From: Rotaria socialis
Taxonomy: Eukaryota
Direction: 5' to 3'
Assembly: GCA_905331295.1 (NCBI GenBank)
Contig: CAJNYD010000017.1
Coordinates: 124,001-188,000 of the forward strand
Length of the DNA: 64,000 nucleotides
This document shows positions 41,801 through 49,564 of this stretch, one piece after another. Under the pieces are notes generated by a model, which ran no database searches, had not been told where the DNA came from, and worked only from the letters and a program-made list of their open reading frames with translations. Numbering within the stretch: the stretch's first letter is position 1; the number at the start of each line of letters is the position of its first letter. The position numbers were made by a program, and so were the translations under genes.

Positions 41801-42065
41801 TTTAATCTAATAGGAAATCTTGACAATTGATAAACGTTACAATATTACCTTAGAGGTCGTACTGTACAAGTCGCATTTGTTTTATCGCTACCATTGGCTG
41901 GACAATATATTTATTGAATGAAAGATAACTGTCTAAATTCATAATAAAAGTATAAGACATTCATATCTTGTGTCCAAAGAAAATATGGTTAAAAAAGATG
42001 ATTTTATTATCAGAACTAAAAATAAACCTTCAGATTTATTTGAATTACGTCGATCATAATTTACA

Positions 42066-42989
42066 ATGAACTATTTACGTATTATTCAAAAAACCATTCT
42101 CACGATATCATCTATAAGACATTCTTCGACTATAACTATTCCAGCGTTAATAGATTCTTATCCAATCGAAGCAACAGTATTCGAACCAAAATCGCCATCG
42201 TCTGATTCGATATGTGTTGTGATTTCTGAAGCAACAGGCTCTCGTCGTCAATTTTATTTTCCATTTGCACAATACTTAAGTGAACAACATAATCTACATG
42301 TTGTGACATACGACTATCGTGGAATACATGAACGAAAACCAACGCAATGGAATCTTGTTGAACATTGGGCTCGACGTGACTGTGCTGGAGTACTATCATA
42401 TTGTCTTGACAAATATAATGAAGTTGTTCATGTAGGTCATAGCCTTGGCGGAAATATGCATGCACTTCTACCATCGCCTATAAATGAAAAAATTTCACGA
42501 ACAATTCTTGTATCAGCAACAAATTCTTATTTAATGTATCACAAATGGAATTTAGCTTTTCTTCTAACATGTTCATCACTTTACATTCTTCGCGAACCAC
42601 TTTGTAGATTTTATGGATATTATCCAGCACGTACTGTATTTCGTGCGGGTGTTGATATGCCATCAAATATAATTCGTCAATGGGCACGATGGGCATTAAA
42701 TCGTCAATGTTTTGTCGATGAAAATGGTCAAGTATTTACAGATGGCTTTCAATCACTCAAATGTCCTATTCTAGCTGTAAATTTTGCTGACGATGAATTT
42801 TACACACGTCAGGCATTCGACAAATTTACTGGACAATTTCATCAATCATCAAATATTCAAACTTGGCATTTACCAAAAGGTGGTCATTTTAGTTTTTTTA
42901 AAGAGAAGCAATCGTTAGAACTTTGGAACGAGATAGTTCGATTTATAAAATATGCCGATACAAAACTTCCTACTATTATAAATAAATAA
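42066..42989 (+). CDS. Intronless alpha/beta-fold hydrolase of bacterial predicted-hydrolase type
   Basis: ATGSRRQFYFPFAQYL, TYDYRG, nucleophile elbow GHSLGG, DMPSNIIRQWARW, candidate acid (DDE) and His (GGHF) residues; 307 aa with no introns. Confidence 0.88.
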   Translation: MNYLRIIQKTILTISSIRHSSTITIPALIDSYPIEATVFEPKSPSSDSICVVISEATGSRRQFYFPFAQYLSEQHNLHVVTYDYRGIHERKPTQWNLVEHWARRDCAGVLSYCLDKYNEVVHVGHSLGGNMHALLPSPINEKISRTILVSATNSYLMYHKWNLAFLLTCSSLYILREPLCRFYGYYPARTVFRAGVDMPSNIIRQWARWALNRQCFVDENGQVFTDGFQSLKCPILAVNFADDEFYTRQAFDKFTGQFHQSSNIQTWHLPKGGHFSFFKEKQSLELWNEIVRFIKYADTKLPTIINK

Positions 42990-46610: not shown

Positions 46611-46996
46611 AACTTTCATTCGTATTCCGTATCTTTCCAAACAGCTATTTCGAAAATTTATTCTAGTGAAACATCGGTTATTTAAACATTACAATCTCAT
46701 CTTCCAATAGCGCGCATTCTTGTGCGGGTCAGTGTGTCTGTGGATTGTATTTTTTATTGATAGCCACTCCCTCAAGCCACATATTTTGTTGTAATGTCGT
46801 TCTTCTTTTTCTGTTGATAATAAAACGACATGTCATGAGAAAATCACATCATCGTTTATTTTTGTGAACGAGACATTGATACTATTAATTTCGTACATCA
46901 GTGGATATCTGCAGTTGAGTTGTTTGTCACAGCATTATCTTACATTACGAATTATTCAACAGAATTACTAACAAATTTTCTTGATTTTTAAAGAAA

Positions 46997-47103
46997 GTGC
47001 TGCTCTGGCAGGTCGATGTTGCCATCAACCCGCATGATTTCGTCATCGCAACATGTATTTGATCAGCGAAGATCTTTTACCTCTTGGTAAGTTTATAATA
47101 AGC
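46997..47103 (-). ncRNA. Spliced-leader (SL) RNA gene, copy 1 (variant leader)
   Basis: GCTTATTATAAACTTACCAAGAG|GTAAAA followed by the conserved TTGCGATGACGAAA block and the 3' hairpin GCGGGTTGATG-GCAA-CATCGACCTGC. Confidence 0.8.
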
Positions 47104-47239
47104 AATTTAACATCGTTGGTCTGTAGGACACGATATTCTTCTCGTTCTGACACATCACTCGCTTACATTCTTCTTTGTTCTGTACGGAAAGAGTAGAGAC
47201 AAAAATAATTTCGTGCTCTGAACCTCGACGAATAAAGTT
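47104..47239. promoter_or_regulatory. Divergent spacer between SL copies 1 and 2 with conserved upstream motifs
   Basis: TCGTGYYCT at about -29/-30 and ACGA at about -12/-13 upstream of each leader; the same motifs and spacing occur upstream of copies 3 and 5. Confidence 0.6.
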
Positions 47240-47344
47240 GCTTATTACAACTTACCAAGAGGTAAATGGCCTTTACTGATGAAAAACAGGTTGCGATGAC
47301 GAAATTGAGCGGGTTGATGGCAACATCGACCTGCCAGAGCAACA
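47240..47344 (+). ncRNA. Spliced-leader (SL) RNA gene, copy 2
   Basis: GCTTATTACAACTTACCAAGAG matches the bdelloid SL exon as I recall it (GGCTTATTACAACTTACCAAGAG). It is followed directly by a GT donor, with a TTACC/GGTAA stem over the donor, a 3' GNRA hairpin and a T-run; ~105 nt in total. Confidence 0.88.
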
Positions 47345-47723
47345 TTTTTCAATAAATAAAATTCAAATGCACCATCGGTAGATTGTACGAATCTATGCTT
47401 AATAACGTGTATTCAAATACAATGTTATAGCAGTCTTCAGTAATATTAATGTAATAACTAAACAACTACTGCAGAATTAAAACGAAATATAGGCTGTTTA
47501 TGCTATCTTTCACAATTAGAACAATCTTACTATGCATACTCTCAAATTCATATCAATCACTTTTCTTTGAGTAGCACTCGCAATACTGTTTAGTTTTATC
47601 GCTCAATTCTGAGCAGTCAGATGTTTTTTGAAACAACCTATGATTGAAAAATGCAGAACCAGCACGGCAGCTTTCAAACTTCACTTGAGAATCACTGAAT
47701 ATTGTCATTTTATTTATTAAAAA

Positions 47724-47829
47724 GTGTTGCTCTGGCAGATCATTGTTTCCAACAATCCGCACGATTTCGTCATCGCAACATGTATGCGATCAATGAAGAT
47801 CTTTTACCTCTTGGTAAGTTGTAATAAGC
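47724..47829 (-). ncRNA. Spliced-leader (SL) RNA gene, copy 3
   Basis: Same 22-nt leader plus GTAAAA; 3' hairpin GCGGATTGTTG-GAAA-CAATGATCTGC. Confidence 0.85.
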
Positions 47830-47871
47830 AATTGTCTTCGTGGAGATCCAGGGCACGACACCCCACTTGTN

Positions 47872-47942
47872 TACTGATGAAAAACAGGTTGCGATGACGA
47901 AATTGAGCGGGTTGATGGCAACATCGACCTGCCAGAGCAACA
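47872..47942 (+). ncRNA. SL RNA gene copy 4, 3' part only (5' end lost at the N gap)
   Basis: Identical to 47274-47344 and begins immediately after the N at 47871. Confidence 0.6.
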
Positions 47943-48321
47943 TTTTTCAATAAATAAAATTCAAATGCACCATCAGTAGATTGTACGAATCTGTGCTTAA
48001 TAACGTGTATTCAAATACAATGTTATAGCAGTCTTCAGTAATATTAATGTAATAACTAAACAACTACTGCAGAATTAAAACGAAATATAGGTTGTCTATG
48101 CTATCTTTCACAATTAGAACAATCTTACTATGCATACTCTCAAATTCATATCAATCACTTTTCTTTGAGTAGCACTCTCAATACTTTTTAGTTTTATCGC
48201 TCAATTCTGAGCAGTCAGATGTTTTTTGAAACAACCTATGATTGAAAAATGCAGAACCAGCACGGCACTTTTCAAACTTCCCTTCAGAAACACTGGATAT
48301 TGTCACTTTATTTATTAAAAA

Positions 48322-48427
48322 GTGTTGCTCTGGCAGATCATTGTTTCCAACAATCCGCAGAATTTCGTCATCGCAACATGTATGCGATCAATGAAGATCT
48401 TTTACCTCTTGGTAAGTTGTAATAAGC
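48322..48427 (-). ncRNA. Spliced-leader (SL) RNA gene, copy 5
   Basis: Same 22-nt leader plus GT donor; AATTCTG immediately before the 3' GAAA hairpin. Confidence 0.85.
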
Positions 48428-49564
48428 AATTGTCTTCGTGGAGATCCAGGGCACGACACCCCACTTGTCTTTACACTTTTCATCAACGAAGCCGTCCGAT
48501 CAATGATTTCTCAAGTTCAATAGAATTGTTAAAGATGGCAGTAATGTCGTCGACTTAATAAGGTCGTCTGGAATAAAGCCACACAGGGATGAATCGCAGA
48601 GCTTGAATTTTTGAAGTCGAACCTATGGAAGATAAAAGTAATATACGTTGCCCAAATTTAATAAAATAATTCGAAGAAGATTTACGAAAAAAGGAACTAA
48701 TGAAAAAACTAAAATTTGATGATAGCATTGAAAATCATCTAATTGATTCAAATCAAGACCGTGAGAATGATAAACTGACCAAAATGGTAAATGTCATATA
48801 GTTCAGTCTCTTCTATCTTAAATGACACCCAATTATCAAGCAAAAATCTCATCTTAGATTTATTTCTAAAAGTGAAGGTATGAATGATAATATAAAGAGT
48901 ACTGGTGTTTGAATTATGAAATAAAACTTCACCAATAAGAGAATATTTCTAATGAATCAACAAACGAACCATCTGTAACTTTCGACTTCGTATAAAATGA
49001 TCAAGATGAAATTTCATTTAGAATTAAATTAATTGGAGTACAAATTTTGTGTATGTTAAGTTTCGCCTTAGGAAACGTCTTCATAATAGTCAATCGTCTT
49101 GGAAACAAAAAAACTATAGAACTTTTTTATTAGACGTGTTTTAGTTTTATTAATGTGCAGGTTGATGATAACATCGACCTATCAGAGTAACAGCTAATAA
49201 GTGGAATATATTTATTCAAGAACATACCGGTTGATATATATCCTGTTTGGAAAGAATTACTTTCCGAAACTGAGATATCATAATGCGATGAAACCAGTAA
49301 ATGGATAAAAATATATGACTTTTTACAATGGAAAAAAGAGTCGTTTCATGATTATATGTAGGAACTTCTCGTCATTTTAAGAGGAATTTTATGTAAATAT
49401 CATATCCCCTGATCGGTTGAAAGATACGTGTATCTTCAAACAAGTAGTTTTCAATTGGTAGACATAATCAATACAATAAGAATCGTATTCATTATTCTAT
49501 GTGTTGTTAAATCCATGAATAATGTGAATCCGAAAAGGCTATGTTTAAAATAGTATTTTTTTTA

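What the first reader, a model, noticed from the sequence alone, without database searches (positions are those of the whole stretch)
47309..47334. Compensatory substitutions preserve a GNRA-capped hairpin in two SL RNA subfamilies
Seen: copies 1, 2 and 4 have GCGGGTTGATG-GCAA-CATCGACCTGC; copies 3 and 5 have GCGGATTGTTG-GAAA-CAATGATCTGC. Two pairs covary (G-C to A-U, A-U to U-A), one changes G-C to G-U, and the loop stays GNRA. Inference: selection acts on RNA structure, and two diverged SL classes carry the same leader, possibly specialised like nematode SL1/SL2.
Basis: partly seen in the sequence, partly recalled or inferred. Interest (0 to 1): 0.72.

Follow-up and report, generated by a model that had tools for sequence, protein, structure and literature searches.

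The report
Rotifer spliced-leader RNA with kink-turn
The flagged hairpin is a real, structurally conserved part of a bdelloid rotifer's spliced-leader RNA genes, with many variants rather than two classes; it caps a nearly invariant motif predicted to fold as a kink-turn like that of box C/D snoRNAs, which likely stands in for the Sm-protein site that these RNAs appear to lack.

Summary
In detail: five copies carry the two 26-nt hairpins as written, in a cluster of bdelloid rotifer spliced-leader (SL) RNA genes (22 leader bases match the published 23-nt leader). Covariation holds in 106 distinct genes, 102 of them from metagenomes: the five best-scoring of 5565 column pairs are all hairpin pairs. 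GNRA is common but not required (56 of 68 hairpins). The 'two SL1/SL2-like classes' reading fails. Copies 4+5 are probably an allele of copies 2+3 joined at an N. The markers occur in 47 combinations, and in runs of the same species their shares range from about 6 to 53%. The more interesting result lies beside the hairpin. It caps an almost invariant GUUGC-RAU-GACG...CAGA-GCAAC motif that meets standard kink-turn rules in 105 of 106 genes (1 of 3180 shuffles). The motif looks like box C/box D with the U-U pair replaced by C-A. No Sm site is conserved: RAU4-6GR occurs in 1 of 106 genes and the published rotifer motif AAYUYUGA in 19 of 106. I infer an SL RNP built on a K-turn protein such as Snu13. 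Folding and binding are untested, and a no-bulge tandem-GA register is the thermodynamically favoured rival.

The parts
46999..47103 (-). SL RNA gene, copy 1 (leader with a C>T change and one extra A; hairpin type A at 47008-47033; C helix with a U-G pair)
   Evidence: 112.5 bits
47104..47239 (.). 136-nt divergent (head-to-head) promoter region shared by copies 1 and 2, with two PSE-like boxes per gene at about -51..-40 and -32..-21
   Evidence: the gap is 132-137 nt in 55 of 57 head-to-head pairs; upstream profile from 101 distinct 60-mers; function inferred
47240..47343 (+). SL RNA gene, copy 2, 104 nt; its stem II is disrupted relative to most genes
   Evidence: (113.2 bits)
47240..47261 (+). 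22-nt spliced-leader exon, followed by the GT donor (47262-47263) inside stem I
   Evidence: identical to bases 2-23 of the published Rotifera leader; depth about 67000 on the exon and about 6 beyond it in a run guessed to be RNA
47290..47301 (+). 5' strand of the predicted kink-turn: C helix GUUGC (47290-47294), bulge GAU (47295-47297), G-A-C-G (47298-47301); box C-like AUGACGA at 47296-47302
   Evidence: columns invariant or nearly so in 106 genes
47302..47308 (+). 7-nt A-rich bulge between the K-turn NC helix and the long hairpin (AAA conserved, last four bases variable)
47309..47334 (+). The flagged 11-bp hairpin with GCAA loop (type A)
47335..47343 (+). 3' strand of the predicted kink-turn: box D-like CAGA (47335-47338) and C-helix arm GCAAC (47339-47343)
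47345..47349 (+). T run just 3' of the gene body (likely termination or 3'-end signal; a possible Sm/LSm site is not excluded)
   Evidence: a run of 3 or more T in the 14-nt tail of 104 of 106 genes, 4 or more in 89
47726..47829 (-). SL RNA gene, copy 3 (hairpin type B at 47735-47760); its upstream region is cut by the N at 47871
   Evidence: (119.1 bits)
47871..47871 (.). Single N joining two 598-bp units that are 97.5% identical; probably two alleles joined by the assembler
47872..47941 (+). Copy 4: leaderless 3' part identical to copy 2, starting at the N
   Evidence: 61.3 bits
48324..48427 (-). SL RNA gene, copy 5 (hairpin type B at 48333-48358; differs from copy 3 by 2 bases in the bulge)
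   Evidence: (116.8 bits)
49154..49192 (+). Degenerate leaderless relic of the SL RNA 3' end (AUAA loop, 5' K-turn strand lost)
   Evidence: 82% over 39 nt; 20.5 bits, E 0.011, rough

Best explanation
Shown: a 104-nt gene with leader, GT donor in stem I, short stem II, a 5-bp stem closing the 3' domain, the covarying hairpin, the invariant RAU-GACG / CAGA core, and no conserved Sm motif. Inferred: transcription from snRNA-type (PSE-like) promoters, often head-to-head. The GUUGC/GCAAC stem would be the C helix and RAU the 3-nt bulge. G.A, A.G, C.A and G-C would form the NC helix, which a 7-nt A-rich bulge and the hairpin extend. The hairpin holds box C and box D together as a spacer, so only its pairing is selected. 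Snu13 and a partner (Nop58-like, or SL-specific in the way Rrp9 is for U3 or Prp31 for U4) would protect the 3' end and could recruit the cap hypermethylase TGS1. The leader is then trans-spliced at AG|GU.
For: Core columns in 106 distinct genes: GUUGC 106; L1 G 83 / A 23 (purine only, 13 parsimony changes); L2 A 106; L3 U 106; 1b G 106; 2b A 106; 1n A 106; 2n G 105; 4b-4n G-C 106; -1 pair C-G 106. Every change in the C helix keeps the pair. The strict K-turn pattern is found in 105 of 106 genes against 1 of 3180 shuffles; the loose pattern in 105 of 106 against 75 of 3180. RUGAYGA occurs in 104, exact RUGAUGA in 3, CAGA in 105. The two departures from RUGAUGA/CUGA fall on the two partners of one pair (U-U to C-A), and 3b=C permits ion-induced folding (Rule 3 in PMC5061560). 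U at L3 and a purine at L2 favour Snu13 binding (PMC1874613). Six further full-length genes with altered leaders, not in the alignment, keep the core. In three DNA runs of the same species no variant at 2% or more is listed at 47290-47304 or 47331-47343, while 13 rows are listed in the hairpin. RAU4-6GR occurs in 1 of 106. AAYUYUGA occurs in 19 of 106, 18 of them across the variable loop of stem II, and in none of the window's four genes. Precedents: U3 C'/D has a required bulge next to helix II; TGS1 is recruited by NOP56/58; telomerase RNAs swap Sm, H/ACA and C/D biogenesis domains.
Against: The core is invariant, so covariation cannot test the K-turn pairs. Nearest-neighbour folding, which cannot score K-turns, prefers a register shifted by three bases: mean pair probability 0.83 for G68-C108 against 0.001 for G71-C108, and RNAalifold gives the same register. 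A U-U pair at 3b.3n is described as highly conserved in C/D motifs and was preferred in Snu13 SELEX; here it is C.A. The strict pattern was written after seeing the sequence, although from published rules. The 106 genes are relatives, so the shuffle test counts as about one observation. The T run just downstream could be an unusual Sm/LSm site if it is transcribed. No structure probing, protein binding, cap or 3'-end data were available. Rfam gives no match at gathering score and only chance-level hits.
Confidence: 0.58

Rival explanations
1. The 3' domain is an unkinked helix with a tandem G.A internal loop and U-A, G-C pairs, followed by a 10-nt bulge or a 3-bp mini-hairpin (three-way junction). 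It is recognised by an SL-specific protein outside the L7Ae family, and the box C/D likeness is incidental.
For: This is the minimum-energy register. U67-A109 and G68-C108 are 106 of 106. G71 can pair with column 76 in 100 of 106 (G-C 60, G-U 40) and C70 with column 77 in 97 of 106.
Against: The tandem G.A of this register is intact in only 82 of 106 genes, because its G is the one freely varying core base. The mini-hairpin is 82% paired with no change on both sides, A69-U78 is broken in 42, and 6 divergent genes keep at most one of its three pairs while keeping the K-turn core. It leaves the invariance of A69 and G71 unexplained.
Confidence: 0.27
2. The RNA is an ordinary Sm-class SL RNA whose Sm site is highly degenerate (the pyrimidine-rich stem II loop, or the 3' A(C/U)UUUU tail). 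The K-turn, if it forms, is only an accessory element.
For: AAYUYUGA is cited as the Rotifera Sm site (PMC2606063). Diverged Sm sites are reported for Oikopleura and flatworm SL RNAs. The tail has T at 97, 101, 102 and 89 of 106 at positions 3-6.
Against: The stem II loop columns are among the most variable in the gene (12-24 parsimony changes each), include purine-rich loops, and are deleted in one gene (L060+700). The motif overlaps a paired arm. The tail lacks the 3' G and varies in length from 2 to 9 T. A recalled length of 105-106 nt for the published RNA (no call) would end the RNA before the T run.
Confidence: 0.3
3. One reading: hairpin types A and B mark two functionally specialised SL RNA classes, like nematode SL1 and SL2.
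For: Two hairpin haplotypes with six differences coexist in the window. Copies 3 and 5 form a well-separated branch among the window's genes.
Against: There are 47 marker combinations in 106 genes with all four gametes, and the window's copies cluster with each other. Marker shares are unequal in same-species runs and a third loop is the commonest. Copy 1 is a mosaic. The leader is the same. Copies 4+5 are probably alleles of 2+3.
Confidence: 0.06

Closest known systems
Bdelloid rotifer SL RNA (Adineta ricciae, Philodina sp.; Pouchkina-Stantcheva and Tunnacliffe 2005, seen only through citing papers)
   Same: Leader GCTTATTACAACTTACCAAGAG (published with one more 5' G), length about 100 nt, GT donor.
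   Different: The genomic base before the leader is T in 97 of 101 upstream regions, so the encoded leader is probably 22 nt. The cited Sm motif AAYUYUGA is present in only 19 of 106 genes. I found no mention of a K-turn, but could not read the original paper.
Box C/D motif of snoRNAs, especially U3 C'/D
   Same: Terminal stem, RUGAYGA and C(A)GA boxes, 3-nt bulge ending in U, tandem G.A, one G-C pair, then an A-rich bulge and a helix; independent gene with snRNA-like promoter boxes.
   Different: C.A instead of U-U at 3b.3n; no unpaired guide, since the bases before box D are a paired hairpin arm; no second C'/D' motif found; the RNA carries a spliced leader.
U4 snRNA K-turn (Snu13/Prp31 site)
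   Same: Standard simple K-turn with a C-G pair at -1; purine-purine-U bulge (the U4 bulge sequence is recalled, no call); spliceosomal context.
   Different: U4 has G-C at 3b.3n, does not fold in ions alone and also has an Sm site (recalled).
Nematode SL1/SL2 system
   Same: Multi-copy SL RNA genes with three stem-loops and a 22-nt leader.
   Different: SL1 and SL2 differ in leader sequence and carry classical Sm sites; here one leader goes with a continuum of hairpin variants.
SL RNAs without a canonical Sm site (Oikopleura, Paulinella, dinoflagellates)
   Same: No RAU4-6GR in the intron.
   Different: The passages read propose a diverged or exonic Sm site and mention no K-turn.
Trypanosomatid telomerase RNA
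   Same: A non-snoRNA that uses a box C/D biogenesis route and binds Snu13 and Nop58.
   Different: It is a trans-splicing acceptor, not the leader donor; binding is shown there and only predicted here.

Membership tests
Bdelloid SL RNA | Leader identical to the published Rotifera SL exon | tested here: met
   22 of 23 bases in copies 2, 3 and 5; the first G is T in the genome; copy 1 has two changes
Bdelloid SL RNA | GT donor right after the leader, inside a stem-loop; gene about 100 nt | tested here: met
   Stem I is 99.6% paired; body 103-107 nt in 105 of 106
Bdelloid SL RNA | Leader is transferred to mRNAs | tested here: inconclusive
   Run X15 (RNA is the tool's guess; contigs only): depth about 67000 on 47240-47264, about 6 after 47269. 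This fits trans-splicing but does not show which copy donates
SL RNA (Sm class) | Conserved single-stranded Sm site in the intron | tested here: not met
   RAU4-6GR 1, RAU3-6G 8, AAYUYUGA 19, Ciona/Hydra/Schistosoma motifs 0 of 106
SL RNA (Sm class) | Trimethylguanosine cap and Sm protein binding | not testable with these tools
   needs immunoprecipitation
Standard simple K-turn | 3-nt bulge followed by G.A (1b.1n) and A.G (2b.2n) | tested here: met
   105 of 106; the exception has A at 2n; rule from PMC5061560
Standard simple K-turn | Watson-Crick C helix, C-G at -1, and a paired NC helix beyond the G.A pairs | tested here: met
   5 pairs, all kept in 106 of 106; G-C at 4b-4n 106 of 106; no change on both sides, so no covariation proof
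Standard simple K-turn | Kinked 3D fold and binding by an L7Ae-family protein | not testable with these tools
   The complex-prediction tool scores protein partners only; the energy model favours a shifted register
Box C/D snoRNA | Box C RUGAUGA and box D CUGA with U-U pair | tested here: not met
   Exact box C in 3 of 106; CAGA instead of CUGA in 105; 3b.3n is C.A (102), U-A (3) or A.A (1)
Box C/D snoRNA | Unpaired antisense guide before box D or D' | tested here: not met
   The bases before CAGA are the covarying 3' arm of the hairpin; no Rfam family reaches its threshold
SL1/SL2-type two-class system | Distinct leaders and discrete gene classes conserved across species | tested here: not met
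   Same leader; 47 marker combinations; window copies cluster together; unequal marker shares
SL1/SL2-type two-class system | Class-specific acceptor genes (operon-internal versus outron) | not testable with these tools
   An identical leader hides the donor class in mRNA reads
SECIS element | [quoted passage not shown] | tested here: not met
   The core is alike, but only one G-C pair comes before the bulge (rule), and the element lies in an SL RNA gene

The most novel reading that the evidence does not exclude
Bdelloid rotifers run trans-splicing with an Sm-free SL RNP: a leader and donor site were grafted onto a box C/D (U3-like) snoRNA 3' domain, and Snu13 with Nop58 or a bdelloid-specific partner supplies capping, stability and entry to the spliceosome. 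This would be a separate origin of SL trans-splicing from the snoRNA side rather than from an Sm snRNA.
Probability: 0.3. Interest if true: 0.85.

Novelty: new variant of a known kind. Interest (0 to 1): 0.62.

Why it matters
SL RNAs are usually treated as Sm snRNPs, and gene-finding pipelines filter on an Sm-like motif. A metazoan SL RNA with no conserved Sm site but an invariant K-turn would show a second way to build an SL RNP. It would bear on the open question of how often and from what SL trans-splicing arose; the monogonont Brachionus showed no leader in an EST study, so the origin may be confined to bdelloids. It is cheap to test: one gel shift with Snu13 and one anti-Sm pull-down. The alignment also questions the Rotifera Sm consensus repeated in the literature, suggests the leader is 22 nt, and gives a seed for a family that Rfam 15 did not match.

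Tried and rejected
No genome is held for this window, so all genomic copies could not be aligned; metagenome loci and run contigs were used instead. Rfam: nothing at gathering score; three chance-level hits, E 3.9-8, two of them to the C/D family sR2 at 14-15 bits against a cut-off of 42, not used as evidence. Hammerhead ribozyme was considered because of GAUGA and CGAAA and rejected: the recalled core CUGANGA is not conserved and there is no stem II between the two parts. SECIS was rejected (membership table). The 3'-domain pattern gave 0 matches in viral contigs. No RNA holder was listed among runs that hold the stretch; X15 was added by species label only, and its low depth on the intron says nothing about expression. 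No listed contig piece bridges the N at 47871, which proves nothing alone. My first tree-based covariation null counts gap events and is conservative: only 1 pair reaches E<0.05 under the R-scape-like null and 3 under the rate-kept null. The script machine gave no answer to the maximum-likelihood tree script, so FastTree was used; its supports were not examined. The 2005 paper and Watkins 2002 were not held. Earlier findings of this scan: none returned. Pfam found a family for only 1 of 7 neighbouring ORFs.

Full report
Observation. The degenerate pattern covering both hairpins matches exactly five places in the window, against 0.00 expected. Both hairpins fold well (z -5.6 and -7.1). Five random changes in the stem would keep all 11 pairs in 543 of 200000 trials, or 2457 of 200000 with a transition bias. 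The five copies are not independent. Bases 47274-47870 recur at 47872-48468 with 15 differences in 597, joined at the window's only N, and copy 4 begins at that N without a leader. In three DNA runs the two units' depths add up to about the depth of the unique flank: X2 7.2 + 4.6 against 11.5; X1 6.3 + 36.2 against 32.1; X5 26.6 + 5.9 against 26.7. The tool warns that such depth is no copy number, so this is a hint that the units are two alleles joined by the assembler. The window therefore holds three SL genes, a probable allele of two of them, and a relic at 49154-49192.

Identity. Copies 2, 3 and 5 begin with a 22-nt sequence equal to bases 2-23 of the Rotifera leader tabulated in PMC3795323 (Adineta, Philodina and Bdelloidea sp. 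in its supplement), followed by GT. The base before it is T in 97 of 101 distinct upstream regions, so the encoded leader is probably 22 nt. In run X15, which the tool guesses to be RNA and which shares the species label of the best DNA holder, contig depth is about 67000 on 47240-47264 and about 6 after 47269. That fits a leader joined to many mRNAs, with the tool's caveats on contigs. The window is about 31% G+C. I take the organism to be a bdelloid rotifer by inference from the leader; no call names it.

Larger alignment. An exact leader-plus-donor pattern found 118 metagenome loci. A looser search in these loci and the window gave 190 leader hits; 169 parsed as whole genes and 21 did not. 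Of the 21, 14 are cut by a contig or locus end, 1 is a parsing offset of a gene present elsewhere, and 6 have a leader with no SL body or only part of one. The parser anchored on the core motif, but no full-length gene with a recognisable body was lost. After removing duplicates and rows with N, 106 distinct genes remained, 4 of them from the window (alignment A1). They are related and partly come from repeated assemblies, so counts are of sequences, not events.

Covariation is real. Seven of the 11 hairpin pairs change on both sides, and the two hairpin segments are 98% and 93% paired. The covariation score is 0.221 against 0.137 in shuffles (0 of 500) and at most 0.064 for slid partners. With G-test and APC, the five best of 5565 column pairs are all hairpin pairs; three reach E of 0.02 or less under a rate-kept tree null, but only one under an R-scape-like null. 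On a tree built without the hairpin columns, partners change on the same branch at 0.48 against 0.24 for non-partners. The loop is GNRA in 56 of the 68 distinct 26-nt hairpins; 7 further hairpins are 28-29 nt long.

Two classes are not supported. Copy 1 has the type A hairpin but is nearer copy 3 in stem II. In the same species, summed contig depth in X1 gives the type B letters shares of 42% (47313), 27% (47317), 25% (47321), 15% (47326), 6% (47327) and 53% (47330); loop GUAA is about 52%. X5 and X2 are similar (shares computed by hand from table 3, and rough because differences near contig ends are not listed). This looks like one large family drifting under a pairing constraint.

What the hairpin sits in. 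The hairpin is enclosed by GUUGC-RAU-GACG-(7 nt) on the 5' side and CAGA-GCAAC on the 3' side. These columns are as conserved as the leader, although the search selected only on the leader. By the rules in PMC5061560 this is a standard simple K-turn: C helix with C-G at -1, bulge R-A-U, G.A, A.G, then C.A and G-C. A strict pattern is met by 105 of 106 genes and by 1 of 3180 dinucleotide shuffles; without the bulge and -1 rules, by 105 of 106 against 75 of 3180. The pattern was written after seeing the motif, and the genes count as about one observation. The strands read AUGACGA and CAGA, one base each from box C RUGAUGA and box D CUGA, and both departures fall on the U-U pair; three divergent genes have an exact box C. 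3b=C allows folding in Mg2+ alone. U at L3 and a purine at L2 suit Snu13. A bulge next to helix II is required in U3 C'/D, where Nop58 inserts a helix. A covariance model searched over 60 of the 118 loci found further copies. Of the 14 printed, six full-length genes with altered leaders keep the core, as do a leaderless copy and three 5'-cut copies with both strands present; two degenerate copies have lost it; one fragment shows only the 3' strand and one gene breaks off after the 5' strand.

Against the K-turn. Energy models, which have no term for K-turns, prefer a register shifted by three bases, with U-A and G-C pairs and a tandem G.A. In that register the G of one G.A pair is A in 23 genes, and the optional mini-hairpin is only 82% paired and nearly absent in six divergent genes. 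I therefore rank it second, but invariant columns cannot decide between the two. C.A is not the U-U that C/D motifs conserve and that Snu13 SELEX preferred, so ordinary C/D snoRNP assembly may not follow, and I do not file the RNA as a snoRNA.

Sm site. RAU4-6GR occurs in 1 of 106 genes and the Ciona, Hydra and Schistosoma motifs in none. AAYUYUGA, cited for Rotifera, occurs in 19, and 18 of these start 11 bases after the leader, across the loop and 3' arm of the small GAUC stem II. That loop is among the most variable parts of the gene, is deleted in L060+700, and matches the motif in none of the window's genes. I infer that this is the published site; I could not read the paper. A T run follows the gene in 104 of 106. 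T tracts are reported at SL gene terminators elsewhere. My recall that the published RNA is 105-106 nt (no call) would put the run outside the mature RNA, but an Sm/LSm role is not excluded.

Gene arrangement. Head-to-head pairs are spaced 132-137 nt in 55 of 57 cases, 136 in the window. Two conserved boxes lie at about -51..-40 and -32..-21 with no TATA-like column, as expected of snRNA-type polymerase II promoters (the comparison rests on my own knowledge).

Mechanism and novelty. Most likely the hairpin is a spacer that brings box C-like and box D-like strands together into a K-turn, and Snu13 with a partner gives 3'-end protection and perhaps TGS1 recruitment, in place of the Sm ring. Telomerase RNAs show such swaps of biogenesis domain. 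Searches for 'SL RNA' + 'trans-splicing' with 'kink-turn' or 'k-turn' returned 0 papers. 'Spliced leader' + 'Snu13' returned 19, none by title on SL RNA binding (listing only). The 30 listed of 412 papers had no occurrence of 'spliced leader RNA'. Searches listed no structural study of the rotifer SL RNA. The library lacks most subscription journals, including the 2005 paper, so novelty is not proven.

What I saw of each paper. PMC5061560: parts 1-4 of 6 of the text. PMC5499572: introduction, section 28 and passages. PMC3795323: passages, sections 15 and 17, and a term search of its supplements. PMC1925144, PMC2606063, PMC4824033, PMC6053224, PMC5519232, PMC1874613, PMC4993307, PMC12582326: passages. 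PMC4382518: listing with the start of the abstract. Pouchkina-Stantcheva and Tunnacliffe 2005 and Watkins 2002: nothing (cited or recalled); their figures and supplements may bear on the Sm-site and U-U claims.

Verdict. Observation confirmed; structural selection supported; two classes not supported. The RNA is a known kind, but its 3' domain appears to be an undescribed variant: K-turn about 0.6, fully Sm-free RNP about 0.3. Interest 0.62.

Noticed in passing
L060:457-566 (-), L053:449-558 (+), L023:1208-1314 (-); degenerate in L045:462-567 (-): SL genes with a variant leader (TTTACTT(C/G)AAGAG-type 3' half in L060 and L053, a similar one in L023), promoter boxes and an intact K-turn core. 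In L053, L060 and L045 they sit head-to-head with a canonical-leader gene of the divergent long-hairpin clade. This is a better candidate for a true second leader class than the window's hairpin types.
   Followed up: partly
window 47104-47239 and 56 further head-to-head pairs counted in the metagenome loci (some are repeated assemblies): Head-to-head SL gene pairs with a nearly fixed 132-137 nt gap (35 at 134) and a two-part PSE-like element on each side; likely a shared bidirectional snRNA-type promoter.
   Followed up: partly
window 47239: The base before the leader is T, not the G of the published 23-nt leader, in 97 of 101 upstream regions; the extra G may come from copying the cap.
   Followed up: partly
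window 47267-47285: Copy 2 (and 4) has a broken stem II; nearly all other copies in same-species runs read A at 47269, T at 47270 and C at 47281, so the flagged copy is a minority variant.
   Followed up: partly
window 46973-47336: Summed contig depth over the SL genes is in the thousands against about 30 for unique flanks in X1, pointing to a large multi-copy family; the tool's depth is not a copy number.
   Followed up: no
window 48700-49400: This stretch, which includes the relic SL 3' end at 49154-49192, is itself at high depth with many joints in several runs; it may be a repeat or mobile element carrying an SL fragment.
   Followed up: no
window 42060-42989 (+): Intronless 309-aa alpha/beta hydrolase (Pfam Abhydrolase_6, E 8.8e-09); possibly a horizontally acquired gene, not tested.
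   Followed up: partly
L024:700, L062:724, L076:857, L098:174, L100:457: Leader-like sequences with no SL RNA body behind them; possibly retrocopies or decayed genes.
   Followed up: no
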